Shown here in pieces: positions 626-51,953 of a DNA stretch of 51,953 bases. Source of the stretch: Perkinsus olseni (lineage: Eukaryota). The stretch spans positions 1 to 51,953 of the forward strand of contig JABANN010000218.1 in NCBI GenBank assembly GCA_013115125.1, read 5' to 3'. The notes beneath the pieces were generated by a model, which was given only the letters and a program-made list of their open reading frames with translations, was not told where the DNA came from and searched no databases. The position numbers were made by a program, and so were the translations under genes. Each line of letters starts with the position of its first letter. Position 1 is the first letter of the stretch.

Positions 626-3603
626 GTATGTTCGTGTCCATTGGAGTGGGCGCGAGAGAGGCCGGTTCATTCCTCTGGATTAGCTTCATACTAGCGGCCC
701 TTGCATGCGGGTAAGCCGACTCGAAAAATGCAATTCATGCATCGCTTCGCTCCGCTCAGAATATCTGGTCTTTGTTACTGTGAGATGAGCTCTCTCGTCC
801 CAGTGGCTGGATCGGCCTACAGCTACGTCTACACCATCTTAGGCGAGCTACCGGCCGCTATTGTTGGCTTCGTGCGCATGCGTGCATACCACTCCTTTGC
901 AAACTCGTCTCAGGTTCTTTGTGTCGACAGCTCTATCTCGGCCGCTGCTGTTGCCAGAGCGTTCGCTGCCTACGTCAACGTTCTGCTTGGTGAAAAATTG
1001 CCGAAAATTTTGTAAGAATTTTTTGGCAAGAGAATGGGAATGATCATGTGGCATCTCGCTCAACTCCTAGTACTTGATAGCGTCAACGCCGGATTCCATC
1101 CTGTAGTTCTTCGAGTCCAATAGTTCGGACTTTTACGTCGTCCGATATCACCTTTTTAGAATTATAGGCGGGATACTTTGTGCTACTTTCACGACTACAA
1201 TGAGTGACTCGGCTCTGATCTGTCTCGGGTCACGACGCCATTATTCACCTCAGTCGCTTCGAAGTAGCCACGGCGGAAAATTACCGGGTCAAATTTTCCT
1301 GTTGGTATCTTATGGGTAAAATGACTTCTTTTCTAATTTCCGCTCGTCCAATTTCTTGTCCGTAGTAGTCCCATACCACCCCTTCACCAAATTTCATCCT
1401 CTATTCCTTAGGGCGAGCGAGATTAACATCAGGTACGACTACGACCTCGGATCTTCCGAGAATCTTTGGTCGATATCTTTGCTTTCCTTCCTGCTCTGCC
1501 TCCTCCTCGGGCTGCTCCTTTATCGCGGGATAAGGCAAACGAGCACGTGAGTGTGGGGAAAATTTTTCCAGAAAAAGCGGAAATTTTTTTATGATTTTTC
1601 AGTTTCAATAATTGGAGTACAATTCTGAATATGGCGGTGATTCTAGTGTTCATAGTTGGAGGTGAGTTCGCGGATGCAGCGCGCGCCCTGATGATCGATT
1701 TGTCAGGTTTCGTGTTCTTCCGTAGTGATATTTGGCATCCTACCACTCCTGAAGGGATCGTTCGCGGCTCTGGTCGAGTCTTTTTTGCGTATCTTGGTTT
1801 TGATGTTATCAACTGCTTGGCTGAGGAGACAACCGAGGTGAAAAAATCAGGAAAATTCAAATTTTCGGGAAATTAACGAAATTTGTCTCGAAGATCTCAA
1901 ATTTTCCAGTCGGTAATAACTCAACTCTAAAAATTTCGATAATTTTCCGGAGAAAGATACGAAAATGACATCTCTGGTTCGATCCTTGGCAGGGTTATTT
2001 CTTCAGGCACGTCGACTGGTCCCGCGGGCAATAATCATCACCATTGTTATTTGCTGTGTGGTGTACGTATTGGTCGCAGGTAGGCGGAGCGAAGCGATTC
2101 ATGTAATCCAATTCTAGCTTTTTAGTCGCTTTCGTCCATTTGGCACCCCTGGCTAGTGTTAGTATGGACGCACCGCTGGCGACAGCTTTTGAAGCGAGAG
2201 GAGCGACAGTCCTAGAGTAAGCAACCCTCTTCGTATCTTCCTTGCTTCGACCTTGGATATTCCATAGTCTATTCTGAACAGCTACCCTCGACAATATTTT
2301 CCGAAATTTTTTCAGATTCGTGGTCTCGCTCGGCGCCGTTGGTAACACGATGACCTCCGTCATGTCGTCCATGATCGTTCAGCCGAGAATCATGCTGAGG
2401 ATGAGCAGTGACGGCCTCCTCCCCGAAGCGGTGAATCGCATCTTATATAGTGAAACGGCTGATCGATTCCATCTTGGTCAGATCGGAAGACTCACGAGTT
2501 CTGGTACTCCTTCCACGGCTCTTATTATAACAATCGTTATGTCATCAGCGCTCGCCCTGGTGATCGATTTTGAAGCTCTCGCAGATATTGTATCTTTCGG
2601 AGCTTTGCTGAGCTTCCTGGCTGTATGCCTATGTACCATGTTAGGTAAAAAATTTCTAAAAAATTTGCCTGAAAATTCTCGGGAAACTTCTCTTTTCTCC
2701 AGGCCGAGTTGTGCCGCCCTCTGTCTATCGTCAGCGGGCAGCCGCCAGTCAACAGCCGCAAGAATACGGAAAACCCGACGCAAACGGAGCGCCCGCGGCG
2801 GCCAAGAGTAGAACGCTCGTAGCCGATCTGCGAGTTCCTTGGATCAACCTAAGATTCTCGTGCAAGCGCTCAGCTCCGACCACATTACCCCAGAGAGATA
2901 CTCCTCATGGTTCTTTTCTTCGAGGTGAGATTTTTTTCCCAATTTTCCCCGACTTTTCCTTTTTTTCAGGTTGCAACATTAGTTTTCGGTGCGCTATTTT
3001 TGCACGATCTTGTGAGTATCTTTTTTTACCTCCCTTTGTTAATCATTTGTCTCTTCGCCGGGATCGCCACTTCCCGCGTGGTCCGCACATATTTCAAGTA
3101 AGACGAATTTTATCAAACCCGACGACTCGAATGATAACAGTTACACTGATCTCGGCGATGGTAATGAGGACCCTCTGACCAAACCTTTCCGAGTGCCGGG
3201 AGCCCCAGAAGTCCCTCTAGCTGGGATGTTCATCAACACGTAAAGCCAGCGTGATAAGAGATTTATTATCGCCCTCGAACGATGGCTCAGGTACATGATT
3301 TCGGGCCTGCCATTCGCGGCCGTTCTCCGAGGATTGGCAGTGATGCTCGTCGCCATCACATTTTATTTTGCGTATTCAATTAGAAATTCGAACTTAGCGG
3401 CATCGGGAGAAACAGCGGTGCAAAAGATGTAAGCCGGGAGAATCGAACCGGGTGCCTCTCTCTTGACAGCCGCAACCTCTACCACTGTGCTACTCGAGAT
3501 GTTTCTCCATTGTAGGGACGGGAAGATAGCCGGACGATATGTGAACTTCGAGAATGACGACGACTCCACCAGCCTTGATGGAGACACCGAAGATGTGATT
3601 TAA
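626..3603 (+). CDS. APC-superfamily cationic amino acid transporter (CAT-like), multi-exon; N-terminal exon(s) not identified
   Basis: Spliced exons read GMFVSIGVGAREAGSFLWISFILAALACG (626-710), ISGLCYCEMSSLVPVAGSAYSYVYTILGELPAAIVGF, GRVFFAYLGFDVINCLAEETTE|ARRLVPRAII, SSMIVQPRIMLRMSSDGLLP, LADIVSFGALLSF and PFRVPGAPEVPLAG, all typical CAT motifs. GT-AG introns include 711-759, 1838-2006 and 3429-3515. The last exon ends DTEDVI-TAA at 3603. Confidence 0.88.
3429..3515 (-). other. 87-nt intron of the + strand CAT gene containing an antisense tRNA-Asp-like pseudo-tRNA
   Basis: The reverse complement reads TAGCACAGTGGTAGAGG-TTGCGG-CTGTCAA-GAGAG-AGGCA-CCCGGTTCGATTCTCCCGG: A-box, GTC anticodon loop and B-box at tRNA spacing, with poorly paired stems. 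Confidence 0.72.
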
Positions 3604-3955: not shown

Positions 3956-6252
3956 TTAATCGGCCCATGCAGGAGCCATCAAAAGCAAAGCGCCAGGGAG
4001 CAGATCGGCACGCAACGGGCTTGCCGAATCCATCAGCTCGCCATCGATGCCGAACTCAGCGTATCTTCTATCAGGATGAGACGCATCTCGTTTAATAGTG
4101 GGTTCAAAAACAACAGAAGTAACTCGCTCGGTCGTCACTCGAGGATCTTCCAAGTGCTTGTTGTCCGTCACCTTCGCTACGATTTGGGTGAATCTGCAAA
4201 GAGGCGTATCTTGAGGTCAACAAATGTACCATCTTACGTAAATCGATCAACTGCTGGTATTATAACCAGCTCCATGTAGCCGCTTGCTAAATGAGCGTTT
4301 TGCATCCAAACGGTTCGGTCTTCGGTATTTCGCACGGCCACGTTCGTCAGCGACAACAAAGATACTCCCTTCTGATCATCAACTTCAACCCATCCCTCTT
4401 CGCCCGCCTTCACGATTGGTGACGGATCAAGCATCTTGTGACCATCAGATTTTTCCAAATATTTTGTAGTAATTTTATGCAACACACTGCAGGCCATGCA
4501 AGAGGTCCCGCAAGGCCCCACATCTTGCAACCACCGAAGCATCTTCGATTCCGCCGTCGGCAGCGGCTCGCTCGTCTCAGGCGAGGAGGACTCGGCCGTT
4601 AATTCAGAAACGACCGGGCCAACTAGATTACTAATTTCGGGCGCGCTGGTGGTCTTATGGCAGCCGAGTGAAGGAGCCGCAAGACGACGGTCTATCTTAC
4701 TCCGTAAATACCTGAAAAATACCCCTGCCAGGGATCGAACCCACGACCTTCCGCTTACCGGCATTTCATCCCAGTGTATGCCAAACTAAATCCTCCTTTT
4801 CCATGTCCAACGTCGCTCGGATCTCCCCCTCCTCGGAACACCGTCTGCGCACCCGCAAAGATATATCTCGTGGGGCCCAAAAATCTTTTATTTTCCGACC
4901 GGACATTAACCTCGGCGATAAAACCATAATTAAGTCCGCACAACGCCAAAGTAACCTGTGGTCCCTCAGGCAAGTATCTTGTTATTTTCATGACATCCAC
5001 AGGTCTCATCCAGCCATTAACAATAGCCGTCGCCGCTGTCAGGGGCTGCCTCATTCCGCCACTGGCCGCCAAAGAGTTGTGGCTTCCCGCTGGGAGTTGA
5101 CCAATTCCGAGAATCGCAAAAGCCTCGGACGCATCCGGTCGTTCGGCCATGCCGTTCACGAGTTCATAGACCAAACCATCGCCGCCAACTGCTGCAATCG
5201 CTCCTATTTTTTCCAAATCGATCGACCGAGCGATTTCACCCGCGTGGCCAGGATGGTCAGTCTGCACGACTGAGTACTTCCGATGGGCTCTGTCCAGCAT
5301 AGGTTGAAGAATTTCCCGGAACATCTTTTTTGCGCGTTTCCGACCGCCGATCGGGTTGATGACGACCAGCAGCTCTTTCTCGCGACCGTACTGGGGTGTC
5401 GTCCAGTCTGTTAAAATCTCCTCCCACTTGGCGACACCCGCAACAAAGGGAACTCGGAAAGTGAACCTGAATGAAAAGATATCTTTTGACTCTGCGATCT
5501 CCTAGGTCGACCTCAAGATATCTTACTCTCTCAACTCTCTTTTGAATGGGTCCTTGTGTTCTGTATAGCGACTCTTGAATGGATTCCGATGCTTACCCCG
5601 CAACTTCATAGAAGTAAAGATACGAATCGTCGTATCCCCTTCGACGTCGTAAGCATAAATATCTTCTGGGCGCCACTCGATCAGCAGCTCCCCGTACAAA
5701 TCATCGACGCGGATTCTGATGAAAATACCATAAAATCGCCGGACATCCTCCACGTACAACCGAAAATGACCCACTTATGCCGAACTTTATTTTACAAAAC
5801 TTAAGAACTTTCACGAACTAACATTTTCCGAAGAGTAAGTCCCTCGATCGAGGCTGTTTAAAAAGAAAAAAAATCCGTCACCAATTCCAAATTTCTGCAG
5901 TCCTCAATCGCGACCAGGAAGTGTTCGGATTCTGTATCTTGCATGCTTCAACCTCAAGATACTACCTCTTGCCAAAAGTAACATGGGCCGGCACATTCTT
6001 CCATCCCGGCTTGCCATGCTCCGTAAAAATACCAATATCGCTGGCAGCTGGTAACGACGACGACTCGCCATTATTTGTCGAATTAGCCAAATTAGTCGAA
6101 AGTTTTTCTCGCGCGCCCGGAGCCGAGTTGGGTTGACTTATCGTCGTCGCGGGCGATGCTGAACCGTGTGGAAGAATCTTCGGCTGCGAACCCGGCGGGG
6201 CTGACTCGATGCTCGCTTCATGTGGTACCTCCGTCGTAACAGGAACGGTCAT
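3956..6252 (-). CDS. Sphingosine/ceramide kinase-like protein (DAGKc family), multi-exon
   Basis: Motifs LLVVINPIGGRKRA, VGGDGLVYELVNG, LPAGSHNSLA, FLGPTRY and GIDGEL. Probable ATG at 6252 (MTVPVTTEV), stop at 3956-3958. Introns include 4712-4758. Confidence 0.88.
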
Positions 6253-6348: not shown

Positions 6349-8990
<2,642 letters not shown>

Positions 8991-9082: not shown

Positions 9083-10840
9083 TCATTTCTCGCTGAATTT
9101 TGACTGAATTTTCTTGTCAAGTTTGCTTCGCTCCGCCTTCATCACTCCCCTCCGTCGTCGTTGCCGCTGCCGCACGCTCCTCTCGAGCGTTATGAAGGTC
9201 ATCAACAAGACCATCCATATCCCACTGATGCTCAGTCTGAGAAAAATGGACCTCGACTTGACCTCTTTTGTATCTTGCACGCATGAAGATAAGATACTCC
9301 CATCATTACTGCATCCCAGTAATCCATAATATTAACACTTCGATCGATCGCCTTCAACAACCAGAACTCGTACGGAGGAACCTACGAGAAATTTTCGTGC
9401 GCCACAAATTTTTTTTCAGATTTTTTCCGGAAAAAACTCACCGTCGTCGGCAAATCTTTAGCTGTCGTATCCGGCGGCATGGTCGACGGAATGGCAATAT
9501 CGTGCTCTCTTATGAGATAACTATAATCGATCGCCGGGGCGGGCGCTACTGTCGTTGCCACATCCGGGACCACAGCCCCTGAGCCGAACCGTGCGGCGCC
9601 TACCAAAGTCGAGCCTGAGAAGAGTAGAACGCGCGCATCGTCGAAGACCCGATCGATCCCACAATCGTTTCATTTTGACGTGATAGTAATTCGTTTCGAA
9701 ATGGCCAAATACGACGTTGAAGATATATTTTGGAAGATACCAATTGCTCATGAGAAAACGACGCATGAAGAGTCAATGGCTTCACCAAAAAGGAACTAGT
9801 CCCTCTTACCATGATTCACTCGAAGTTTCTCGGGTTACTCATAAAAATAGAACGAAAAAACAATGGGAGGGGATGCTCAATGGACTGCATTTCAGGAGTC
9901 CTCCTAGGATTGAATTTAACGTGTGAAAGACGATCCTGGGAGGGCTGTTGAACAGCCTGAATGTATACCAAAAAAGATACCAATCTCACGCGCTGCAAGA
10001 ACAATCACTAACTCTAGGATCACCAAGACTACCTAGCATCTTCGGGAGGGTTATAACTACGATACCAAAAAAATGAAGACTTATCGTGATATATTACAAT
10101 AACTACGATACCAAAAAAACTGTAGACAACGAAGATACCGAGATCACGATACATGAATTCGTCGATAGAAGTTCTATCATAGAACCCGTCGCACTACATT
10201 CAGCCGAGGACATGATCGGTTGGGTGATGTCAGGCCCGCCCATTGGAGTGGCGGGTGGCCGAGCTGAACCGATGCCTGGCAGGTTGGGCAGGGGGGGAAG
10301 CAAGGATGGGAACGGAGGTATCTAAGGTTACACTCATGCACAAGACGGAAAAAAAGATATCATCACGAAAACTGCAGCATGGCAGACCAAGCGTCCACCG
10401 AAGAATACCAATTTTGCTTATTATAAGAATTAACGGAAAGACAAATCTCTTCCCCGAATAAAAAATCTAACCAAATACCAGAATAGTAGTATCCAAGATC
10501 CATTTGCAAAAAAATCCGCGAGAACAAAATATTCGCGAGCGTAGATTTCGAGAGAATCTTAGGTTGAAGCGTGTCCCCCGCGGAAAGGCTATCGGTCCAG
10601 TACTACCTCGCTGTCGAGCATCCTAGGTCGAACCTTGATAGACATGACAAAATGGATGAAAGAAGCACACTGCAACGGCTCCGAGTGAGAATTCCGACAG
10701 ATAAGAAGACACCACACACAGGGATCGAACCCACGACCTTCTCATAATCGTCCACGCATACTAAGCGTTCGAGCTACATATTACCACGACTAGGAGGGTT
10801 CAGGACGCCGGTGAGGGTCACTAAGGAAGCTAGACTACAA
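9083..10840 (-). CDS. Hypothetical multi-exon protein with Pro/Thr-rich segments and a C-terminal TM helix followed by a basic tail; boundaries uncertain
   Basis: Exon-like segments LPPLPNLPGIGSARPPATPMGG (10103-10303), VVPDVATTVAPAP..DLPTT|gtgag (9442-9606) and LSISGIWMVLLMTFITLERSVRQRQRRRR (about 9150-9240), separated by AT-rich intron-like DNA. No recognised family. Confidence 0.45.
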
Positions 10841-11393: not shown

Positions 11394-13831
11394 TCAATGT
11401 ACCGCGGCGCGACCTTGGACCAAGCCTTGGATCGCGTAGAAAGTGCCGACGATAACAATACCTAGGACGACCGCTAGGGCTGTATAAGTTAGGTAGAGGC
11501 GGTATCCCCTTGGTTGCTGAATGCGAAGGTAAAACCAGAGGGGGAATATGTAGATTGAACCTGAGCGGAGCGAAGCTAGATTTTCAAATACCGGGTTGTT
11601 TGCTTTGAACTTACATGCTGTGAGAAGAATCCCACCTACGGCTTGGAAGTAGGCGAGCTGACTTCTAGCGACCACTGCCAACAGTGCGATGATGCTTATC
11701 ATCACACAACGCCATATAATCCTCCAGACAGTGCTTCCAGCGAAAGCGGCAGTTGTAGAGAATTTATGCTGAAAAAAATACCTCTGCCGGGAATAGAACC
11801 TCGGCCTTTCGGAGTACGGACGGGTGCTCGACCGCTACGCCAAACGAGGACTCACCAGCAGATGAGATATCTGCGTCTCGCTGCTAACCATCACCGGAAC
11901 CATGAGGACAGGGACGAATGCGAGCATCCTCACCAGAATGAAGGCACACGCTGTGTATATGAGCCACTTCGGGAGGACCCCCGCAGGAGCAACTAAAAAA
12001 TGACAAAACCGAGGATCGAACCTGCGACCGATTAAGCCATCTTCAATCTCGCCAATTCAAACTCCTGCTTCGCTCCGCCCACTTACGAGAGAAGTTTTCT
12101 ATGTAAACTTGCTCACAAGGGCCGTCACATAAAAGTATCCCCGCGGTTCCCAACACGTAAACGTAGAGTATCGAAATTATCAAACAGATGCACATCCACA
12201 TTGTGATACGGCTAGAGGGCGTGTCTGAAAAGGAATCTTTTCTGTGCGCACCAGCGAGGTCGTCGACGTACTCTTGACACAACCGTAGAAGGGCGGTAGG
12301 GATGGCGCCGCGCCAGAATTCCAAATGGACAGCGCGACTGCTGTGAAGAAATGCAAAACAGGCGGATCAGCAAGCTGCAGGTCATTCTCGACCTTTTTAA
12401 GGTCGGAAGATTCGACCAAAGTACCTGCGGCTACCTGAGTTGGGAAAGTTGTGGTATGGAAATGTGCACGCATGCGCACGACACTTACCAACATTCCCAA
12501 ACCACCAAGACCTGCGACTACGGCGGTCACTGCCAACACGCCATTGATCTCTTTCATAAAAGGACAAATGATTATTAACAAGGATAAAAAGGAAAATATG
12601 ATTATCCACCATTCAACTGAGCAAAGGAAAGATATTCTTCGCTGTGCGCAAAGATACGCCTACCGGATATAGAATCAAACAGAATATGCGTAGTGATGCC
12701 CATGGCCGCCTCAACGCCAATGACCGACATAAGATACTCCAGAAAGATGACCTAAGAATCAGGAAAAAAACTTCGCTCCGCTAAACTTTATTTTCCGCCA
12801 AGACCAACAAAAGATTCGCTACTAATCTCACAAGCTTCGTCTTACTGCCGAACCTAGGCTGCCGATCGCATTTGAATTTCGTGGCGCAGTGACGCTGCGC
12901 GAGATGGCCAACTTACCGCCGATGCAAACCTCCTCCCAAGGCGACCACCACAAAATTCGGCAAGAAAAGTGTACTCGCGTTCGAACGGTGGGACGCCTTG
13001 TTCTTCAGCAAACTGACAAACCTACAGCGGAGCGGGGCAATAATTCTTTCGCAACTTTCACTCATACCTACTTTTTCGTTACGCAAAGCCGCGCTGACCA
13101 TTCTGATACAAATGAATACCGAAACAGCGGTGAGCGCTTGAATCGGGATCGCCAGCAAGCCAGCGGTGGTGAACATGAACGGTACCGAGAGGCCGATGGT
13201 TGTTAGTGCATTCAAGCACGTGAGAACGAAGGACCTGACCCGGACCAGCAAGCAGTTACTCGACACGATCACAACAACGCTCCGCCACGTACTATACAAT
13301 TTGCAAAGTTTTTCGCTTGGAGGAGTCTTTTCATAAAGTCCAAGGAATCATTGGTTCTATGACGGAGTTTGCAGACCGTCATGATCACCATCATGAGGTG
13401 TCCTGTGAACATGTGTCGACATCTGCATCAGTATAGGTGCATAAATTGGAAAGAATCAACATCAAAAATAAACAAGAAATTACGATGGGCCACCCTTACC
13501 ATCTACTCTTGATGGATATTCCCTCTACGATGAGGCGCTCACGAAGAAGAACAAACATGAATGAACGATCAGTATCTAGTAGGTCACTACTGCACATTAC
13601 AAGTTAAAAGATACTACATGTACGCCATGAGTAGAGCTAGGCAGAACCCATGCCACCCCAACACTACCTCAAAGATATGCCGCTTTCCATTCTCTTACAT
13701 ACCGCACCATTCCCAACTCCCTTGCCTGACGTTGGCAGCTGGGCCTGGGTGGTGGTGGAGGGGTCCGTCGAGGCCTCGGTGGGGATGGTCGTAGCCACTG
13801 AGATCTCCGATGCTGAGTAGCAGTCAGTCAT
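11394..13831 (-). CDS. AAAP (Aa_trans) family amino-acid transporter, copy A (divergent)
   Basis: Exons MTDCYSAS..GNGAVCKRMESGISLR, SFVLTCLNALTTIGLSVPFMFTTAGLLAIP, EYTFLAEFCGGRLGG, HFFTAVALSIWNSGAAPSLPPFY and GSIYIFPLWFYL..QGRAAVH*. Multiple TM segments; same exon layout as copies B-E. The family call rests on the N-terminal G-L-S-x-P-F-x-F-x-x-A-G signature. Confidence 0.8.
11769..11855 (-). other. 87-nt spliceosomal intron filled by a degenerate tRNA-like sequence (A-box, B-box, T7)
   Basis: GTGAG-TCCTCGTTTGGCGTAGCGGTCGAGCACCCGTCCGTACTCCGAAAGGCCGAGGTTCTATTCCCGGCAGAGGTA-TTTTTTTCAG. The flanking exons join in frame (HLL|HKFST). Confidence 0.75.
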
Positions 13832-37864: not shown

Positions 37865-40347
37865 GGTTGAAAGAAAATCGCCCTAGCTCTCAATTCCAGA
37901 GACTCTCTGCTCATTCTGAATGAGCAGTGCTCATTGAGCACACGCCCGAGAGAGCTAACCAGGCCGAGCTCTGCCCACATCAACTACACACAGAGTCTTC
38001 GGTAGGCGATACGACCATGCAGCCGTGTCCAAACAGACTAACTTTGTCAATGGATGAGAATCGCGAGAAAATAAAGGCACTTGATTTAATCAACGGGATT
38101 GACGAAGGTGCTCTGGAACACAGGAAACTCCTCATGTATGGAGAGTAGCAGGAGCCACCGTATCTCAACTGAGACTGCCACTCCCTCGTTGCGGGTACAA
38201 AGCTGATATGAACAAATCAGAGCGCCACGTTCTCATTCTAGCCGCGTGGTGAATTCTGCGTCTCAAAGCCGAGACCATCAGCCTGCCGCGCTACTAACTC
38301 ACCAGATAGAATAACACGTAGCGGAATGAAGGTCCTGTAGTCGGTGCGAACCTGGTTAGACCAATCAGGTTGATGATGATACGACCCACTCGGAACTTCA
38401 AATCCTCATTGAGCCGCGGGATTCCCGAGTCGGGATCGAATTCACAGAGCCTCGGACAGTGTTTTACATGCAATGATTGCAGTGCAATCTGCCCGATTCA
38501 CTCTCAGAGCTGCGAAAGAACAACACCACAGAGGAACCGTGCAATAAGCTATCGAATATGAAATGTCCGTCTTTGAAAGACACGATACATCCAGCAGGCT
38601 CGGAGTCGTGACGCCAGGTTCACGCGAGAACCGGCCTCTCCGGGCACAGGCACACATTGTGTGCCACACAAGACTCGTGTGACCTATGATAAGCTCGATA
38701 TCAGACACGTCATTCTCACGTGGAGAGCTCTCTCTTGTGCCACAAGTGGTGTTCGTACTGATTTACCAGCGAGTATGCTTGGACTCAAGGCAATGCCAAA
38801 AATCACGCAATGCAATCATTCTGCATATGTCCGTCGAGACACTTCTTCGGCAAAGTCGTTCCTGTAACAGGAATCCTGTTGCATTTCTCGTCGGATGCTA
38901 TTCCACAGCCAGTCGATGAATGTCTCGGTGTAGCTCTAGACGAAGCGGAAATATACCCAACACGGCTGCGGAAATTATCGCCCCAGTGAGCGCCTGCCGT
39001 TGCCGACTATTGGGACCTAGCGCAGGCCGATTACTCTGTAGCCCCAGGCTTGTCCGAAGGCGCTAAGGTCACTGGGAGACAGTATGGCCATCTGACCATG
39101 ACGGGTGGTTATTGTGACCGGTGATTGCGAGTGGTGATTGCTAACGGTTATGGCGCGGGTCTTGTACGGAACACTGGGCCTTCAATGGGGCTGCCACCCG
39201 TCGAAGGTTAAACCCGACGGCACACTTTCTTATCCTTCCAAATCGAACCCCGCCAGTAGTGTCCCTCCACATCTTCGCACCGGCTGATGCAATAAGGCCA
39301 ACATCAATGAGCAACCTCCTTGTACGCTCGTAGCAACCACGCCCTCATGAACTCAGCTTGCTTGCGCAGAACAAGTCGTGCTCATGATATACCGCACAGC
39401 CCAGCGTTGAGCATGATCACAAACAGTACGATTTTCCATCCAGAGCATACTTGAGCTTCAAGTCTTGAAGCCCGCTGCCCCGTGACGTCGGTGCTCGAAA
39501 TGCCGTAGCAGCCATAATGTGAATTAGAAAGGACAGCATCATCAATAGAGTTACTCTACTGGAGTGCGTACAAAGGGTGATATGATGTTGGTACAATCAT
39601 CCTTCAAGTGGGGTGAATATCGGTAACTCCTTCGCAGCGTCGAGAAGGCTCATCCAACAGAAATCCTGCTACAAGATCTGGCAAACCTCTATCGTAGGAT
39701 TTTGCGATCAAGATCAGAAAAAGAATCAAATGAGAATTAGAATTCGTTGAAATGAAAATTAGATACAGTAGTGTATTTCCGACTAAAATTTGCATACGAA
39801 TTTACTGCTCGGCGGCAATACGGGAAATAACCTACGCATGTTTGTGCTCAACGCTCGCCGAACGCCGCCCCATAAACTACCCTTCGGGTCTTGCCATCAT
39901 CGGCGACACTTCCCAAATACACTCTGAGTGACCTGCTTCGGTTGATGGAGGGCTGGCGATCGGTCAATGCTCAATCACTGAGCCTCAACGACAACGAAAG
40001 TGTCCTCGGCAGTTCGGCTTCGGCACTCTGCTGCAAGCGCGACTTCAATTTGGCGCAGGTTACCTGCATGTCTCGCAGATAATTCCGGCTGCCTAAGAAA
40101 ACAGCTGCCCCCCCAGTCAAGACGATATCGACCTCTGTCACTAATTGGAGAACTGCAAACTCGAACGTATCTTTAAGGAAGTCAAACAAATGTTAAGTTA
40201 GAGATCAACATTCAAGTGAAATTCTAGTCTGCAGCAATGGTCCACTAGATATCCTACCTAGTATTACGACCTCATAATAGTAGTCCCCACCGGGGATAGA
40301 ACCCAGGTCGTTCGTAAGACAGTCATGAACGTTTCTTCCTACAGTAT

Positions 40348-43222
40348 TCAGACATCAGCCCAAATTTGAATGATACTGAAGACTGTGCCGAGGATAGCAG
40401 CTGCTGAGGCAACGATAATACCAACATAAAGACCGGCGACAACAGCGGAGCTGCCAGTCCTCATAACAAGGAGGTAAAACCCGAGCGGCACGACGAAAAC
40501 AAGAGCTGAGAAGAAACGACCATCTCACGCCCGCATGAACCCGTGCCAAGCCCCACCTATAGTGATCGCACATCCAGTGACAGCATAGAGTTGAGGCAGG
40601 TGATTTTGAAGGGCGACAGCCAAGCCACATACAACAACAGTGACCAGCCCCCGCCACAATACACGCAACTTAACCGACGCGGTTCGAACCTGATCATCGC
40701 TGAGCTTCACTTTGAAGAACCCATGCAGTAGCGGAGCTTCTACGGCCGATAATGAACCATCACAGCGAAATATGAGGACCACAATGTCGAGTGTGATTAC
40801 CATCAACACTCATGGCCGCATTCAACTGCGAGCAACGGCCCTTACAGGATAGACACCAGCAGGGGCACCTCGAATACCGCAATTCCCATTTCTGATTGCG
40901 AGTTTACACACCAATCATCCGCTGAGTCTGAGCGAAGATATTCCGAAGCGCGCCGGAATACTGCGATGGCCCGTATGAAAGAAGAATGGCAGCAGCATCA
41001 GAACTACTAAATCCCCACGATCGATACTGGTTCAAGCGGCAAGATGCGTGAGGTTCCTGAGATCCCCGTGTATTACCACAGTGGCCTCCGTCACGGCCAT
41101 CAACGGCGTCATTAACACAGGGATGGCCACGAGACCGTAGGCTATGTACACCAGATAGACGAGCACGAATGCTCCATAAGGTATTACTGAGAATAGAACC
41201 CACGACCATGCGAATGACAACCGAATGGCTTAACGATCCAGCCAAACCCACTCACCAGTTTGGTCACTCTCGAGTAGCGTCAGATAATTGGGCGGACATG
41301 CACTATCTCCACAGAGATGCATCCCCAACACTCCAACAACGCTCATATACAAAAATGAGCATCCAAGCGCCGCAGCCAGGCATCTCTCGAAATATCTTCG
41401 CCGTCCACTGTACCCCACTGCCACGCTCTTCTCCATCGTCTGACTGTCCTCTGTTGCCGCAGACGCAACCGTATCGGCCGGTGACGATGGTCGAACAGGG
41501 GATCCACCCTTCACGGACGGTCCTGAGGGTTTATCATTTCAAGATTTCCAACGGCGCCTGCGCCATTAATTCTATTCGCGGAGATGTAGGGACATAATTC
41601 CTCGAACAATTCTGCTATTGTGACGATCGCTCTACAGCGTAGCCTGAAGCTAGGACAAGGTGTTCTTGTATAGCTGGAACAGAGCTCACAAGAAATTGAG
41701 GATTAACTACAGGGCATGCCTCGCGCGAGGACTCTCCCAAGATTTGACTTACCAGAAACGACGCCCACATACGCCGGCAACGAGAAGGCGTTCGAAAAGG
41801 AGAAGACGACAACTCCGAGAAGAACGAAGAAATCGCCAACCCCTCCAGCGGGCGAATAGAATGGGATCATCGGTAAGCTAGATTGATCGTCCTCCGTCAA
41901 TCGAGCGATCGAGGCTATAATCTGACAAAAAGAAAGATACGCCCAGCACCACTTCCCGAATGGCTCCTACCAGTCCGATCAACCCGACCGTCAGGGCCAC
42001 TGGCGTAACGATCGCGCACACGCGTGTGATGTGCTCGTAGATCGGCACCACCGAGAGGGCGAAGGAAAGCACGGCAAATACCAGAACGCAGTAACCATCT
42101 GAAAGACGAATCTAGGACAGAATTTTTCGGGGAAATTATTACTAGCGATTCGAAAAAGTAACGATCCTGCCTCAGCCAGGGCAACCATGTTGGCAATTAA
42201 CGTTAATAAAAACTGTATACTGATCATCTGAAGAGAGGAGAAACCCGAGAATTCACCTCGACCTTCTCCGCCTCGCTTCAACTCGGATAAGGAAGGTAAC
42301 CGTCGATGAGCGTAAAATGAGCCCAACAACAACGACAACTGCGAGGCTCGTCATTCACCCCAGCAGTTGGCGGAAACAGCGCAAACAGCCCGGCCGGATC
42401 AACTACTGTTGATCGGCCGCAGTGAATCACGAGAACGGCCGAATTACGGCGATAATAACGACTTCCCCAAATGAATTTACACCACGGATAGGGTTCCTAG
42501 CCAACGAAGCCAGTCGATGAGAACTAGATTCTACAGAACGTAGTCCATAACAATTCACATGCAAATCGGCCAATCACTGGTGGAGTTCACACGACCCTCC
42601 TACAACTTTATACGCGAAAAAAAGCAAGGCCGGAGAGTATTTCAGCACGGGCCTGCCAACCCAATCACCGGTGTGATGAACACCCTCCCCCCAACCCACT
42701 TACCGTAGTGATTACGGAACGACCTTTCAAGCCGAAGAGCATCTCGGCGATAAAACCATATTCACGGTTCAAAACTTCAACACCTCTAAGCCTGGCATAT
42801 GACGTGACCTGAGCTAATTAATTGCCCTGCCCCGGGATCAAACCTGCGCCCTATTTACTACCGCTTCAGACTGCACTAAGTGAGCTTGCAGCCACACCGC
42901 TCCGCCAACTAGGCCGGTGATGAGCGACGCGATGATTAGGCTGAACCATCCCACTCGGGAGAATGCGTACGGGCTTGCGAGGTTGGTTGATATCAGTGCA
43001 TTCACACACACCAACATGAACGACCTGCGAAGGAATCTCAGGTTGAAGCTGGCATCAAACAAAAACGAACCGCTTCCGCATCCTCCAGCCCTCATCAGTC
43101 TCTTCAGCCACTGCGATTTCTTCGACCTCGGGCGCAGTCGAAAGATTCTCCTGGACGCCGATAATCTCGTTCGAACTCAGCGAAAATCTAATCTTCTTGT
43201 GGAGCCTGTCCACGATAGATGC
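40348..43222 (-). CDS. Divergent AAAP-family amino-acid transporter, copy F; 5' end unresolved (further exons may lie up to about 43950)
   Basis: Exons SFMLVCVNALISTNLASPYAFSRVGWFSLII, VLNREYGFIAEMLFG (about 42730-42785), MISIQFLLTLIANMVALAEAG, LVAIPVLMTPLMAVTE, LRVLWRGLV..LPQLYAVTG and ALVFVVPLGFY..QIWADV-TGA (40348-40350). Confidence 0.75.
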
Positions 43223-43995: not shown

Positions 43996-44775
43996 ATGTC
44001 TTTTCATCGTGCGTTCGCAAGAGTTGTCTGCAACTACAACAAGAGCATCGAAGGCTCCGTGCCATGGTAGTTCGGGGCGTATCTTAGGTTGAAGCATGGC
44101 AATCACAGGTACCAAGTGAAGCGGGAGAAGTCGCCATTCCAACAAGTGTGGGACGAAGTCTTCACGCCCGTCTGGTTCAAGCTCGTTAAGGGCCCGTAAG
44201 TCTCCCCCACCTTAGAGAGCCGCCGGTTGAGCATACACAGGGGAATGCCTTCAAGTGATGTTGACTATTTCCAACCTATTAGGAATACTAATTGCGATGG
44301 ATAGGATTACCTACACCCAGCCTTCCTCCCGCCGGGGACGATGAAACCGCACAAACCGGGCTGGTCAGGTACGAGCGTTGGGAATATAACGCCCTGGTTG
44401 CTCGCTACAGAGGGATGGGCATTATGGCCGATGATGCTATGAATGATAAGGTATCCGGTTCGATCCCTGGCGACGGCATTTTATCCATTTCAGGATATGA
44501 TCGTCGAACGAGCGCTGGACATCATCCCCGAGGATATCCGTATCCAAAGGTACAGACGGATGATGCGAGGTAAGGTCGACCTCTAGGCGTATCTTTCGAC
44601 CGTTTCATTACCCTCAGGCGCGGTTCTGGCTGGTAGAAAGCTTCATCTTCCGCTAGAGCTACAGAACTACGACCCGATGGTGCCCTACATGGCGCCCTAC
44701 ATCGAAGAGGCCAAATTCCAGATGCAGGAGGAACAGGAGCTGCTGGCCTTTCATCCCTGGGACCGACGACTGTAA
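43996..44775 (+). CDS. QCR7: Cytochrome bc1 complex 14-kDa subunit (QCR7/UQCRB), alveolate type
   Basis: Exons 43996-44066, 44109-44195, 44369-44450, 44494-44569 and 44618-44775 join in frame: ..RYRGMGIMADDAMNDK|DMIVERALDIIPEDIRIQRYRRMMR|GAVLAGRKLHLPLELQNYDPMVPYMAPYIEEAKFQMQEEQELLAFHPWDRRL. It may continue via a further intron at 44772. Confidence 0.85.
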
Positions 44776-45380: not shown

Positions 45381-47362
45381 ATACACCGCAGGCGTGTCCG
45401 GTTTTGGCGAGACTTCGATGCACTCGACCTTCTTCACTATGTAGCCGCTCGATGGCTGATGAAGTATTGGTACATTCGGCGCTCAGTGCGTCGATCATCA
45501 TCATGGTTTACGATGAGGGAAAATATTTTTTATTTGACCTCGGGTCGATTTTAGTGGTCAATTTGTATTCTGTGGTGTTTCGCTCCGCTAGATTCTCCTG
45601 ATTTTCATGAGCGGATTTGTCGAAGAAGAAACAGACGACCCAGCAGGCTTCGTTGCGGCTGCGAGGCGACGTGCTTCGAAGCAGCGGCGAAGTCACGACG
45701 ATATCACGACCGAGGATCGAGCCTACGATCTCTCCAGGAAAGATGTGCCCGTTGTCCGAGAGCCCGCTGATGAGCACCTGGAGGTAGTGTTGACTGACTT
45801 GTTGGTAATAGACGGTCTGACGGCCCAGGCTTTGGCGAGGCTGCGGGCCTCGCATGCTCCGGTGATATCTCCTGATCGAGAACGGCAACCAGTGACGCAT
45901 GCGAAGGAACAACCCGGCGTTGATGAAGCGGATAGAAAGCGGTTGTCCCCTGTTGTTGTGGAGGGCCTGAGTTCCGCAGGTGGGCTAGCTAGGAGAAGAT
46001 GCATTGGTGGCAATGCTTTTAGATGGTGCGACGAAGGAGGGTGACACTGGCCACGTTGAGGACAGCGGGAGTAGAGTAAATCGTCGGGTGATAGAAGTCA
46101 AGCCAGTGACCTATGCTGAGTAGTGACGGGCTGGCGTGGAAGAATACCGAATTTTGATGATAATGTTTGATTCGCAAGGAGAGCTAGATGGCTGCTAGTC
46201 GCTCTCCCGTTTTACTTGGAGCATCTACCCCTCAGCTCACGTTCGCTCAGTTTTGGTGGGTCCTTGCTGCGCGGGGCAACGAACATAATGATTCATTCGG
46301 TGCCCACGGTAGTCGGTGTTGGTTTTCGCTCCGTCTCACTACGTTGTCCCAAGGGCGATGTAAAGGCCTCTCAAAGGTTGCAAGGTCATCAATACTGGCA
46401 TCTCCTGGTAGGGGCGCAAAAAGCTTCCTCATGGTAGCTGGTAATCATCGAAGTCCCATGCCGACTGAGAATTCCGGACATACTGCACATTTTTATAGCG
46501 TCAAAAGGTTCGAGCGACCATTATCGAATAGTTAATGGTATTCAACAATTTGTCGGGTACCCTTTAGATCAACCTTCGCTGTGCGTTAGATACGTTGCTG
46601 TCTGCGAGCCACATGTGGGATGGCGAAGGTTCGGAGGTCTCGGTAGGGGACGCCTGGAGGAGGACGATGAGCTAATAAGGAAGCTGGCGCAACAGGCCAA
46701 GTTACCGCTTATCCGCGTACTTTGTGTTCGCCCTGATGTTGGTCGCAGGTGAAGCACTTCAGCCGACAGCTACGCCGAATCAATGCGGAGAAGCAAGCCC
46801 GAGAGAAGAGCAGGCCTCGGGAGGATGATCGGGTGATATCGTTATCAGAGGGAAGATTTGAATCAGTTGTTCTCAGCTTTCCATCGATGCTAGATCTCGA
46901 GGGCTGGAGTTTCACCGTCGTCAAAGAGAAGGGCATAAGATGAATAGGGAGGCTCGGAGCCGTCGAACGCGGAAGTCGAACTCGAAGCGGCTCGGTGGAG
47001 TTTCGGTGATGGTCGCGTGATGGGGGTAGTTGATTTGGTCAGGTCCGAAGGAAGATCAGGAGGCAGCCGAGCGGGCTAGGTTGGAAGAGATGTTGCGACA
47101 GCATGATTGTCTTCGTGCTAAAGTGGATGCATTTCGACGCTGGCTCCATCTTGGTTGCGCCTTCAATGGTAATCGAGAGATCCGCGTCCGCCACTTCGGT
47201 CGAGGAGATGAGTGGGCAACCGCCTTGAGCTGTGAGTTTGCAGTGCAGATGTTTGAAAACAGTGTGTATTCCCAGAACGCCGCTTTACGGCGGGAGTATC
47301 GCCAACACTGGCTTTATTGGGCCCCTCGTAATTTTTCTCGTGCGATTTTCATGGCTGTTTAG
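45381..47362 (+). CDS. Hypothetical multi-exon gene(s); model unresolved
   Basis: Exon-like ORFs after CAG/TAG acceptors (45381, 45592), plus 45607-46044, 46749-46943 and 47030-47362. The last two are partly duplicated at 48722-49068. Confidence 0.35.
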
Positions 47363-50089: not shown

Positions 50090-50163
50090 TACTCTGGGCG
50101 GGACTTGAACCCGCAACCTTTGGATTAGAAGTCCAACGCTCTATCCGATTGAGCCACCAGAGC
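50090..50163 (-). tRNA. tRNA-Arg(UCU), intronless
   Basis: GCTCTGGTGGCTCAATCGGATAGAGCGTTGGACTTCTAATCCAAAGGTTGCGGGTTCAAGTCCCGCCCAGAGTA forms a full cloverleaf with anticodon TCT and differs from the 35957 copy at 2 positions. Confidence 0.95.
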
Positions 50164-51515: not shown

Positions 51516-51953
51516 GAGCTGTCCAGCTCATCTACAACAACACCGAGGCCCAGGTCATGTACAGTGACTGCGACCCTCATGCTACTTTGCTACTTACCAC
51601 AACCTCTGGCTATGATAATGATGATGAATACGGCATGGATGGGGGGTATTCGTATCGTGCTTTTCCAACTAATTCATCGTCGCAAACTGATAGTGCGATG
51701 AATCGCTCTGCTGATGGTAGGCGGTCGTTGTTGGAGGATGAATCAGTAACTACCACCACCGCTGGTAGTACTACGACGACGAAGGCTTCTACTACCACAA
51801 CCGCTGGTAGTACTACGACCACCGCTGGTAGTTCTACGACGACGAAGGCTTCTACTACCACAACCGCTGGTAGTACTACGACCACCGCTGGTAGTTCTAC
51901 GACGACGAAGGCTTCTACTACCACAACCGCTGGTAGTTCTACGACCACCGCTG
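51516..51953 (+). CDS. Partial Thr/Ser-rich mucin-like protein exon running off the window
   Basis: Open frame after a CAG acceptor: AVQLIYNNTEAQVMYSDCDPH..GRRSLLEDESV, then (TTTTAGS/TTTTKAS)n. Confidence 0.65.
51749..51953 (+). repeat. Coding minisatellite: 21-bp subunits in a 63-bp higher-order unit
   Basis: accgctggtagt(a/t)ctacgacgacgaaggcttctactaccacaaccgctggtagtactacgacc is repeated about 3 times up to the window end. Confidence 0.95.

What the first reader, a model, noticed from the sequence alone, without database searches (positions are those of the whole stretch)
11769..11855. An intron that is essentially one whole tRNA-like gene plus terminator
After GTGAG the intron reads a 72-nt tRNA-shaped sequence (A-box TGGCGTAGCGG, B-box GGTTCTATTCC, partial acceptor pairing CCTC/GAGG), followed directly by T7-CAG. 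Copies B-E have an intron at the same position without this sequence, so the tRNA-like content was gained in copy A or lost in the others rather than creating the intron position.
Basis: partly seen in the sequence, partly recalled or inferred. Interest (0 to 1): 0.75.

Follow-up and report, generated by a model that had tools for sequence, protein, structure and literature searches.

The report
Decayed tRNA-like repeat inside an intron
This is an ordinary spliced intron of a Perkinsus olseni amino-acid transporter gene, not a working tRNA gene, and its last 50 bases are a worn copy of a short tRNA-like repeat that sits at the end of many small introns nearby.

Summary
The letters are as described, on the minus strand: GTGAGT, an A-box-like and a B-box-like motif, T7, CAG (11855..11769, 87 nt). 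The splice junction is supported by gene models from another P. olseni assembly and from P. marinus, which both skip exactly these 29 codons. All five paralogs have an intron at this position.

It is not a tRNA gene. ARAGORN at default settings and the Rfam tRNA model do not call it, even in a 101-nt search at E<=10. The fold is not a cloverleaf (z -1.4).

The resemblance is still not chance. The last ~50 nt belong to a dispersed family with 14 copies in 52 kb. A profile built without this intron finds it at E=2.4e-5, and 30 shuffled windows gave no hit. Six copies lie in junction-supported introns of four genes, all in sense orientation at the intron's 3' end. Three of these introns (43-53 nt) are little more than the repeat.

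Best reading: a decaying tRNA-derived repeat in an old intron, with T-run plus CAG acting as the pyrimidine tract and 3' splice site. Whether the unit is a mobile mini-intron, or is related to the spliced-leader RNA, stays open. My literature searches found no description of it.

The parts
11769..11855 (-). The intron of the finding: 87 nt, GTGAGT...T7CAG, phase 0, with an in-frame stop at 11837..11835
   Evidence: Sequence. P0008 and P0009 skip exactly these 29 codons.
11769..11821 (-). Family unit ('T-arm module'): GTACTCCGAAAGGCCGAGGTTCTATTCCCGGCAGAGGTA, then T7 and CAG
   Evidence: An nhmmer profile of 12 other copies, built without this one, hits 11815..11770 at E=2.4e-5 and 20.1 bits. 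The profile of all 14 copies hits 11821..11769 at 30.9 bits. 30 shuffled windows gave 0 hits at E<1e-3 and a best score of 12.5 bits.
11790..11800 (-). B-box-like / T-loop-like motif GGTTCTATTCC, one mismatch to GGTTCGANNCC
   Evidence: A divergent DNA run (X18) reads GGTTCGATTCC here (table 3).
11832..11842 (-). A-box-like motif TGGCGTAGCGG, one mismatch to TRGCNNAGTGG, starting 42 nt before the start of the B-box-like motif
   Evidence: This part is not shared with the other family copies.
11769..11778 (-). T7 followed by CAG. It is used as the pyrimidine tract and 3' splice site, and it also looks like a pol III terminator.
   Evidence: Sequence. The exon resumes at 11768.
11856..11992 (-). 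Upstream exon (...LAPAGVLPKWLIY...SSETQISHLL) of paralog copy A, an Aa_trans-family transporter
   Evidence: Pfam PF01490 on P0008: 28.9 bits against a cut-off of 25.6.
11615..11768 (-). Downstream exon (HKFSTTAAFAGS...GGILLTAC)
   Evidence: An X7 contig piece ends at 11558, which fits the next intron 11614..11561.
11993..12086 (-). The next intron upstream in the same gene (94 nt, phase 1). It holds another family copy (m12022) at its 3' end and the motif GGCGGAGCGAAGC at its 5' end.
   Evidence: nhmmer hit 12037..11993 at E=2.6e-7. P0008 and P0009 read ...ENFSL|APAGV.... An X8 contig piece ends at 12087. Motif.
4712..4758 (-). Sister copy m4741. The whole 47-nt intron of a diacylglycerol-kinase-domain gene equals one family unit.
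   Evidence: Contig pieces of X17 (record 1) and X8 (record 19) join 4708/4756, which equals 4711/4759 after shifting the cut by the 3 letters (GTA) that fit on either side. nhmmer E=8.4e-11. Pfam DAGK_cat.
44451..44493 (+). Sister copy p44457. This 43-nt intron starts 6 nt before the B-box-like motif.
   Evidence: P0012 reads ...AMNDK|DMIVERAL.... nhmmer E=7.7e-10.
42809..42861 (-). Sister copy m42844, a 53-nt intron of a second SLC38-like transporter gene
   Evidence: P0011 reads ...LLQSEA|VTSYARLRG.... nhmmer E=1.3e-7.
41187..41255 (-). Sister copy m41200, a 69-nt intron (GTGAGT...GGTTCTATTCTCAG). The 3' splice site lies right after the B-box-like motif.
   Evidence: P0010 and P0011 leave a 23-codon gap here. 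nhmmer E=2.9e-5; this copy was in the training set.
1964..2006 (+). Sister copy p1976. It ends in TTCTTCAG directly before a coding exon of an AA_permease gene. It is probably intronic, but the junction was not verified.
8672..8721 (-). Sister copy m8703, ending in TTTTTAG before an ORF with a weak kinase match. Probably intronic, not verified.
40274..40325 (-). Sister copy m40303. It sits just after the stop codon of the P0010-like model, or in the last intron of the P0011-like model.
10700..10752 (-). Sister copy m10731, just downstream of copy A, where an RNA-type contig piece begins at 10785
3417..3471 (-). Sister copy m3449, between two convergent genes. It has a perfect A-box match (3492..3482) starting 43 nt before the start of its B-box-like motif.
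6474..6659 (.). Two copies in inverted orientation (m6504 on the minus strand, p6627 on the plus strand). The arms are 39 nt, 74% complementary and 84 nt apart, in an intergenic stretch.
45693..45743 (-). Weak fourteenth copy (m45721) in an unclear context
   Evidence: E=2.6e-4 with a profile that did not contain it.

Best explanation
The 87 nt are a normal GT-AG spliceosomal intron in copy A of five tandem Aa_trans/SLC38-like amino-acid transporter genes of Perkinsus olseni. It is not a functional tRNA gene.

Its last ~50 nt are a decayed copy of a short dispersed repeat. The consensus is roughly GTAA-CG-AAGGTC-GYGGGTTCGATCCCTGGCAGGGGTA, then a T run, then YAG. This looks like the 3' half of a tRNA (variable loop, T arm, 3' acceptor strand), so the family most likely descends from a tRNA or tRNA-like pol III gene.

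In this genome the repeat sits preferentially at the 3' end of short introns, in the sense orientation. There the T run and YAG serve as the pyrimidine tract and 3' splice site.

The intron position is older than the repeat copy, because all five paralogs share it. So the repeat entered or replaced the 3' part of a pre-existing intron in the copy-A lineage, or was lost from the common ancestor of B-E.

Shown: the junctions, family membership, failure of the tRNA tests, and sense/3'-end placement in six junction-supported introns. Inferred: the tRNA ancestry, the splicing role of the T run, and the direction of gain or loss.
For: Junction: P0008 and P0009 skip exactly 29 codons. The intron holds an in-frame TAG.

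Not a tRNA:
- ARAGORN at default settings finds 2 genes, neither here.
- RF00005 scores 74.6 and 66.7 bits on the two true tRNA-Arg genes and gives nothing here at E<=10, even on 101 nt.
- The minimum-energy fold is not a cloverleaf; z is -1.42 and 18 of 200 shuffles fold as well.

Family:
- The window holds 14 copies.
- A profile of 12 other copies finds the focal intron at E=2.4e-5 and 20.1 bits. The true tRNA-Arg genes reach only 12.9 and 10.7 bits.
- 30 shuffled windows gave 0 hits at E<1e-3.
- B-box-like motifs number 26 against 12.4 expected.

Intron placement:
- Six copies lie in junction-supported introns of four genes: 4758..4712 by RNA-type contigs; 11855..11769 and 12086..11993; 41255..41187 and 42861..42809; 44451..44493.
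- All 9 copies that lie inside a gene are in the sense orientation. These are the six above plus p1976, m8703 and m40303. By my arithmetic the one-sided chance is 2^-9.

tRNA ancestry:
- The focal copy and m3449 each have an A-box-like motif starting 42 and 43 nt before the start of the B-box-like motif.
- From rates, I expect about 0.07 such cases in 14 copies.

Age and lack of constraint:
- A divergent DNA run (X18) also has the module. It differs by at least 4 substitutions within it and has a 6-nt insertion in the 5' part (tables 3 and 4).
- T-stem pairing across the copies is 78.7% against 78.2% in shuffles, with no covariation.

Position older than content: all five paralogs have GT at the same exon end, and B-E have unrelated intron sequence there.
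Against: - The family was seeded with a B-box pattern that the focal intron also matches. Part of the 20 bits is therefore that motif, although true tRNAs with the same motif score 7-9 bits lower.
- Copies are only about 60-85% alike. No target-site duplications or tails were seen, so dispersal by transposition is not shown.
- The source gene (a tRNA with a ...CAGGGGT-A 3' end) was not found, because only 52 kb of this genome could be read.
- Three of the nine in-gene placements rest on ORF logic only (p1976, m8703) or on alternative gene models (m40303).
- Direct RNA evidence for the focal junction was not printed. The joint is not among the 15 of 91 joints shown.
Confidence: 0.7

Rival explanations
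1. Mobile mini-intron (introner-like element). The ~47-nt unit, from GTA... through the T-arm-like core to T-run-YAG, is itself a transposing or reverse-splicing intron that has spread through Perkinsus genes. The focal intron acquired a copy whose own 5' site (GTACTC) is not used.
For: - Three junction-supported introns are essentially one unit: 47 nt, 53 nt and 43 nt.
- GTA lies exactly 17 nt before GGTTC in 5 of 14 copies: m4741, m6504, p6627, m42844 and the focal copy.
- The unit occurs in unrelated genes: diacylglycerol kinase, two transporters and the gene of P0012.
- 9 of 9 in-gene copies are in the sense orientation.
Against: - Copies are old and diverged, not near-identical as in described introners.
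- No target-site duplications or terminal repeats were seen.
- 5' splice sites lie at 6, 17, 55 and 64 nt before the B-box-like motif, so the unit is not always coextensive with the intron.
- Five copies lie outside known introns.
- The focal intron position predates the copy.
- No presence/absence polymorphism could be examined.
Confidence: 0.25
2. The module is related to the 3' domain of the dinozoan spliced-leader RNA gene, or to a B-box element attached to it, rather than to a tRNA. In that case it may recruit a trans-splicing or pol III factor.
For: - One of the 8 metagenome loci matching the family's 3' pattern (L002) is a eukaryotic rDNA spacer. It holds a dinoflagellate-type SL RNA gene followed directly by CCTGGGTTCGATTCCCGGTAGGGGTATTTTT.
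- That stretch is 85% identical over 33 nt to the focal intron and 87.5% over 32 nt to m4741.
- Its AGGGGT pairs with the ACCCCU just inside the SL intron's 5' end.
- P. marinus SL RNA is 80-83 nt and ends in a poly-T tract (PMC3101222, passages read).
Against: - The L002 hit was selected by the pattern itself.
- 4 of the 8 loci (L003, L004, L005, L007) are ordinary tRNAs with the same 3' end.
- The window has no SL exon (0 matches at <=3 mismatches).
- The window has no match to the start of the P. marinus SL intron (0 matches).
- I could not see the 3' part of any Perkinsus SL RNA.
Confidence: 0.1
3. An active intronic tRNA-like gene. Pol III would transcribe a ~72-nt RNA from the A and B boxes and terminate at T7, or the spliced intron would be processed into such an RNA.
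For: - The A-box-like and B-box-like motifs each have one mismatch to consensus.
- Their starts are 42 nt apart, as in a tRNA, and T7 follows 11 nt after the end of the B-box-like motif.
- A true tRNA-Arg lies between the two halves of paralog E on the same strand, so intron-hosted tRNA genes may exist here.
Against: - No tRNA call at default thresholds, and no RF00005 match at E<=10.
- Every stem has mismatches: acceptor 4 Watson-Crick pairs plus 1 GU of 7, T stem 3 of 5.
- The fold is not significant.
- The divergent allele differs at 4 positions in and around the T arm.
- There is no covariation across the family.
Confidence: 0.04
4. Pure chance resemblance of an unremarkable intron to tRNA promoter boxes.
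For: - A-box-like motifs occur at chance frequency: 16 against 17.0 expected.
- ARAGORN at the threshold that calls this site gives 27.9 hits per shuffled window.
Against: - The leave-one-out family match is E=2.4e-5, with 0 hits in 30 shuffled windows.
- The adjacent intron and 12 other sites carry the same module.
Confidence: 0.03

Closest known systems
tRNA genes and tRNA pseudogenes (Rfam RF00005)
   Same: It has a T-loop/B-box core GGTTC(G/T)AT(C/T)CC, a variable-loop-like AAGG(T)C before it and an acceptor-like strand after it. An A-box-like motif starts 42 nt before the B-box start, and a T run follows.
   Different: It fails ARAGORN at default settings and the covariance model. All stems are broken. 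There is no covariation across copies. It lies in sense orientation inside an mRNA intron, and its T run doubles as the splice-site pyrimidine tract.
tRNA-derived SINEs
   Same: It is short, dispersed and multi-copy (14 copies in 52 kb), with a tRNA-related sequence carrying pol III box-like motifs.
   Different: No tRNA-unrelated body, no 3' tail and no target-site duplications were seen. Only the 3' half of the tRNA-like part is shared. The strong sense bias inside genes is, as I recall it, the opposite of what is usual for SINEs in introns.
Introners and introner-like elements (Micromonas, fungi, Aureococcus, Symbiodiniaceae/Polarella, Amoebophrya; passages read in PMC11282704 and PMC7789003)
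   Same: Related sequences make up whole short introns in unrelated genes, in the sense orientation, and carry or abut the splice signals. The lineage is a sister group of the dinoflagellates, where introners are known.
   Different: Described introners are mostly DNA-transposon-like, with target-site duplications and terminal inverted repeats, and are often near-identical (PMC11282704 passages). Here the copies are diverged, lack such repeats, carry a tRNA-like core, and are not always coextensive with the intron.
Dinozoan spliced-leader RNA genes (PMC9399869 and PMC3101222, passages read)
   Same: One environmental SL RNA gene (L002) is followed by the same T-arm-like module ending in T5. 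Its donor context G|GTA resembles the GTA start of the unit.
   Different: No SL exon or Perkinsus SL-intron start is present in the window. The link rests on one metagenome contig.

Membership tests
Functional tRNA gene | Detected as a cloverleaf by a tRNA finder at default thresholds | tested here: not met
   ARAGORN at default settings finds 2 genes in the window, both tRNA-Arg(TCT), and none at 11769-11855. This site is called only at -ps80, where 20 shuffles give 27.9 +/- 5.1 hits per window against 45 observed.
Functional tRNA gene | Covariance-model score at or above the Rfam RF00005 gathering score (29 bits) | tested here: not met
   There is no RF00005 match at E<=10 in the 701-nt and 101-nt searches. 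The weakest matches listed there score 8.8-9.3 bits. True tRNAs in the window score 74.6 and 66.7 bits.
Functional tRNA gene | Internal pol III promoter: A box and B box at tRNA spacing, then a T-run terminator | tested here: inconclusive
   Each box has one mismatch to the recalled consensus. Their starts are 42 nt apart and T7 follows. A-box-like motifs are at chance frequency in the window (16 against 17.0), and T7 is also the intron's pyrimidine tract.
Functional tRNA gene | Stems kept by compensatory change among related copies | tested here: not met
   T stem across 15 sequences: 78.7% paired against 78.2% in shuffles; 262 of 500 shuffles do as well.
tRNA-derived SINE | Dispersed multi-copy element with a tRNA-related part | tested here: met
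   14 copies in 51,953 nt at E<=2.6e-4, against 0 in 30 shuffled windows. The profile also finds the true tRNA-Arg genes weakly, at 12.9 and 10.7 bits.
tRNA-derived SINE | tRNA-unrelated body, 3' tail and target-site duplications | tested here: not met
   Alignments A1 and A2 show no shared sequence beyond the T run. No flanking direct repeats were evident on inspection, but this was not searched systematically.
Introner / introner-like element | Related sequence forms whole introns in unrelated genes | tested here: met
   Introns 4758..4712 (47 nt), 42861..42809 (53 nt) and 44451..44493 (43 nt) are essentially one unit each. For the focal intron only the last ~50 of 87 nt are the unit.
Introner / introner-like element | Evidence of recent mobility: near-identical copies, target-site duplications or terminal repeats, or presence/absence between strains or species | tested here: inconclusive
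   Mean column identity is 60%. No target-site duplications were seen. The focal copy is present in both lineages laid. Orthologous DNA of other species could not be fetched.
Spliced-leader RNA (3' domain) | Homology to the species' own SL RNA gene | not testable with these tools
   The window has no SL exon and no P. marinus SL-intron start. Only the environmental contig L002 shows the link.
U2-type GT-AG spliceosomal intron | GT...AG borders, removal restores the conserved reading frame, and the position is shared with homologs | tested here: met
   The borders are GTGAGT...CAG. P0008 and P0009 are colinear across a 29-codon gap. The same position is interrupted in all five paralogs, and copy B's intron is joined across in 3 of 3 RNA-type runs.

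The most novel reading that the evidence does not exclude
Perkinsus carries a so far undescribed family of mini-introns built around a tRNA T-arm-like (possibly spliced-leader-RNA-related) module. The ~47-nt unit brings its own GTA donor, T-run and YAG acceptor. It has spread, in sense orientation, into many genes and into older introns such as this one. That would be an introner-like system of pol III-gene origin rather than DNA-transposon origin.
Probability: 0.25. Interest if true: 0.8.

Novelty: new variant of a known kind. Interest (0 to 1): 0.5.

Why it matters
As a single locus it is ordinary: a decayed repeat in an intron, with no sign of a working tRNA.

The family behind it is more interesting. 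Fourteen copies lie in 52 kb, all in-gene copies are in sense orientation, and several make up entire 43-53-nt introns.

If that pattern holds genome-wide, Perkinsus would offer a case where intron sequence, and perhaps introns themselves, derive from a tRNA-like or SL-RNA-like small-RNA gene. The passages I read describe known introner families as mostly DNA-transposon-like. [quoted passage not shown] So the family bears on how introns are gained and renewed in alveolates.

For annotation, the practical point is that relaxed tRNA scans in this genome will report many false 'tRNAs' inside introns.

Tried and rejected
- Whole genome: none is held for this window.
- Read laying: the joint across the focal intron is not among the 15 of 91 joints printed, so I have no direct read-level junction. 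Tables 3 and 4 give depth 0 for X7, X8 and X17 at 11783-11795 and 11843, while the DNA-type run X18 covers them.
- Rfam at E<=10 on the whole window: none of the 14 copies reaches a listed tRNA match.
- blastn of the 87 nt against the window: only m4741 was significant. The family became visible with a motif scan and a profile.
- Similarity of the 5' halves of the two long copies (focal and m41200): local score 7 against 6.5 +/- 1.3 in shuffles, so rejected.
- T-stem covariation: none.
- Stable fold: z is -1.42 for the 71 nt, -1.41 for the intron, and +0.52 for the 47-nt unit.
- Pfam on 139 ORFs to place the copies in genes gave only AA_permease and a weak kinase hit.
- Viral-contig scans for the SL exon and for the module: 0 and 0 loci.
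- SL exon and the P. marinus SL-intron start in the window: 0 and 0 matches.
- A branch-point role for the B-box-like motif was considered and dropped. In m41200 the motif ends 4 nt before the 3' splice site.
- Literature searches returned no paper describing tRNA-like repeats or introners in Perkinsus introns. I read listings and abstracts, plus passages of PMC7789003, PMC11282704, PMC9860276, PMC9399869 and PMC3101222.
Full report
**Where and what**

The window is a Perkinsus olseni contig. The names come from source labels of matching proteins, and one of them, P0005, sits on a contig of 51,953 nt, the length of the window.

The finding lies on the minus strand. It reads ...CATCTGCTG|GTGAGTCCTCGTTTGGCGTAGCGGTCGAGCACCCGTCCGTACTCCGAAAGGCCGAGGTTCTATTCCCGGCAGAGGTATTTTTTTCAG|CATAAATTC... 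This is 87 nt (11855..11769), phase 0, with an in-frame TAG at 11837..11835.

**The host gene and the junction**

Five tandem paralogs lie on the minus strand. Copy A is the most divergent. Its partial counterpart from another assembly, P0008, matches Pfam Aa_trans at 28.9 bits against a cut-off of 25.6.

- P0008 (P. olseni, another assembly) reads ...SSETQISHLL|HKFSTTAAFAGS...
- P0009 (P. marinus) reads ...SSETQISHLL|NKFSRTAAFAGS...
- tblastn of both onto the window leaves a gap of exactly 29 codons over the 87 nt.

All five paralogs have GT right after the conserved exon end. Copy B's 61-nt intron is joined across by contigs of X7, X8 and X17 (17550->17612). The intron sequences of B-E are unrelated to copy A's and to each other at sight. 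The intron position therefore predates its present content.

I could not see the read-level joint of the focal intron itself. Only 15 of 91 joints were printed.

**Is it a tRNA?**

No.

- ARAGORN at default settings finds only two tRNA-Arg(TCT) genes.
- Rfam RF00005 scores those at 74.6 and 66.7 bits. It gives no match here at E<=10, even when only 101 nt are searched; matches of other families at 8.8-9.3 bits were still listed there.
- ARAGORN calls 11849..11780 only at an 80% threshold, with mismatches in every stem. At that threshold the window has 45 hits against 27.9 +/- 5.1 in 20 dinucleotide shuffles.
- The minimum-energy fold is not a cloverleaf, and z is -1.42.

**But it is not chance**

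A scan for T-loop-like motifs showed about a dozen sites sharing more than the motif.

- An nhmmer profile of 12 of them, with the focal intron left out, finds the focal intron (11815..11770) at E=2.4e-5 and 20.1 bits.
- It also finds one further site, making 14 copies in all.
- The two real tRNA-Arg genes score only 12.9 and 10.7 bits.
- Thirty shuffled windows gave no hit at E<1e-3 and a best score of 12.5 bits. Iterating the search found no more copies.
- B-box-like motifs are enriched (26 against 12.4; 0 of 100 shuffles reach 26). A-box-like motifs are not (16 against 17.0).

The shared part is about 46-53 nt...GTAA-CG-AAGGTC-GYGGGTTCGATCCCTGGCAGGGGTA, usually followed by a T run and YAG. 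This is a picture of a tRNA's variable loop, T arm and 3' acceptor strand.

One copy sits in the very next intron upstream of the same gene (12086..11993).

**Where the copies sit**

Junction-supported introns that carry a copy:

| Intron | Length | Gene | Support |
|---|---|---|---|
| 4758..4712 | 47 nt | diacylglycerol-kinase-domain gene | contig pieces of X17 and X8 |
| 11855..11769 | 87 nt | Aa_trans copy A | |
| 12086..11993 | 94 nt | Aa_trans copy A | |
| 41255..41187 | 69 nt | second SLC38-like gene | colinearity of P0010/P0011 |
| 42861..42809 | 53 nt | second SLC38-like gene | colinearity of P0011 |
| 44451..44493 | 43 nt | gene of P0012 | P0012 reads ...AMNDK\|DMIVERAL... |

- Three of these introns (47, 53 and 43 nt) are hardly more than one unit.
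- Two more copies (p1976, m8703) end in a T run and YAG directly before coding-looking sequence. One (m40303) lies just after a stop codon or in a last intron.
- All nine in-gene copies are in the sense orientation.
- Five copies are intergenic or unclear. These include an inverted pair at 6485-6646.
- Among 20 introns supported without regard to the module, 3 carry it. The 20 are 13 joints plus 4 from contig pieces, and 3 in copy A. The copy-A introns were examined because of the finding.

**How much of the focal intron is the relic?**

The family accounts for the last ~50 nt. The first 38 nt hold the A-box-like TGGCGTAGCGG.

Against a whole-tRNA relic:
- The 5' parts of the two long copies (focal and m41200) are no more alike than shuffles.
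- ARAGORN's relaxed cloverleaves for m42844 and p44457 run into sequence now shown to be coding exon. So such 5' halves can be spurious.

For a whole-tRNA relic:
- The A-box-like motif starts 42 nt before the start of the B-box-like motif.
- m3449 has a perfect A-box match starting 43 nt before its own B-box start.
- From the rates, I expect about 0.07 such cases among 14 copies.

I leave this open. The family is most likely tRNA-derived, and the focal copy may retain part of the 5' half.

**Constraint**

Across 15 sequences the T stem is paired in 78.7% of cells against 78.2% in shuffles, with no covariation.

A divergent DNA-type run (X18; its flanking contigs differ by about 3%) also carries the module. 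It differs at 11783, 11786, 11788 and 11795, and one of these changes restores GGTTCGATTCC. It also has a 6-nt insertion behind 11843 (tables 3 and 4).

So the copy is older than that split and shows no sign of purifying selection on structure.

**Mechanism**

The stretch works as an intron. GTGAGT is the donor, and T7-CAG is the pyrimidine tract and acceptor.

Copies outside introns mostly lack an immediate T run. This suggests the T run is kept, or supplied, by the splicing context rather than kept as a pol III terminator.

How the unit came to sit at intron 3' ends is inferred, not shown. There are three options:
- retroposed or duplicated tRNA-like copies that survive only where they are harmless or useful;
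- a mobile mini-intron;
- a relation to the SL RNA.

**The SL RNA lead**

A metagenome scan with the family's 3' pattern returned 8 loci.

- Four are true tRNAs.
- Three are one unknown AT-rich sequence.
- One (L002) is a eukaryotic rDNA spacer. It holds a dinoflagellate-type SL RNA gene, ACCGTAGCCATTTTGGCTCAAG|GTACCCC...CTTTTTGG, followed at once by CCTGGGTTCGATTCCCGGTAGGGGTATTTTT.

That stretch is 85% identical over 33 nt to the focal intron. In the predicted fold of L002, AGGGGT near the 3' end pairs with ACCCCU just inside the intron's 5' end.

P. marinus SL RNAs are 80-83 nt and end in poly-T (PMC3101222, passages). Their 3' sequence is only in figures. The window has neither an SL exon nor the start of the P. 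marinus SL intron. This is a lead, not a result.

**Literature**

Searches found nothing on tRNA-like repeats or introners in Perkinsus. In the passages I read:
- a review (PMC11282704) says most known introners look like DNA transposons, and it names dinoflagellates but not Perkinsus;
- the main text of PMC9860276 mentions neither Perkinsus, tRNA nor SINE;
- PMC7789003 describes Amoebophrya introners with inverted and direct repeats.

**Verdict**

The interpretation as a whole tRNA-like gene is not supported. The real object is a decayed member of an intron-associated, tRNA-like repeat family, which I did not find described in print.

Noticed in passing
window 11993-12086 (-): The intron directly upstream in the same gene also carries a family copy at its 3' end (...GGTCGCAGGTTCGATCCTCGGTTTTGTCATTTTTTAG). 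So two adjacent introns of copy A hold the module, and the homologous introns of B-E do not.
   Followed up: yes
window 2083-2095 (+), 7687-7699 (-), 7941-7953 (+), 8319-8331 (-), 9125-9137 (-), 12067-12079 (-), and near-matches: A second dispersed motif, GGCGGAGCGAAGC, has 15 hits with <=2 mismatches against 1.3 expected (0 of 100 shuffles reach 15). At 2079 (+), 8336 (-) and 12086 (-) it directly follows a GTA(G/AGTG) donor-like site, so it may mark the 5' end of a repeated intron type.
   Followed up: partly
L002 551-641 (metagenome contig, rDNA spacer): A dinoflagellate-type spliced-leader RNA gene lies between the LSU 3' end and the SSU 5' end. It is followed directly by a T-arm-like module plus T5 that is 85-87% identical to the window's repeat. 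Its AGGGGT pairs with the ACCCCU just inside the SL intron's 5' end.
   Followed up: partly
window 35957-36030 (-) and 50090-50163 (-): There are two true tRNA-Arg(TCT) genes (66.7 and 74.6 bits). The first lies between the 5' part (about 36.7-37.9 kb) and the 3' part (about 32.2-33.9 kb) of paralog E on the same strand. It is therefore either in a 3-kb intron or in a disrupted gene.
   Followed up: no
window 6485-6523 / 6608-6646: Two family copies form an inverted repeat (39-nt arms, 74% complementary, 84 nt apart) in the stretch upstream of the kinase-domain gene.
   Followed up: partly
window 6274: In X17 an RNA contig ends here with the loose letters TGAGCCAAGA. Their reverse complement is the end of the Perkinsus spliced leader (...TCTTGGCTCA...). 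This is likely the trans-splice acceptor of the diacylglycerol-kinase-domain gene.
   Followed up: no
window 6314 -> 12630: A joint skipping 6315 nt (ends AC..AA, shorter side 23 letters) appears in one contig each of X7, X8 and X17. It may be a shared short sequence or an assembly chimera. It remains unexplained.
   Followed up: no
window 51749-51953: A tandem array of 21-nt units (seven overlapping copies of a 79-nt register) runs off the end of the window inside an ORF.
   Followed up: no
window 24275-24925 (-), paralog C: The gene model P0001 from another assembly reads through the intron homologous to the focal one (...GRILVGEILLENMVTPLLF...). So annotations of this intron differ between paralogs and assemblies.
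   Followed up: no
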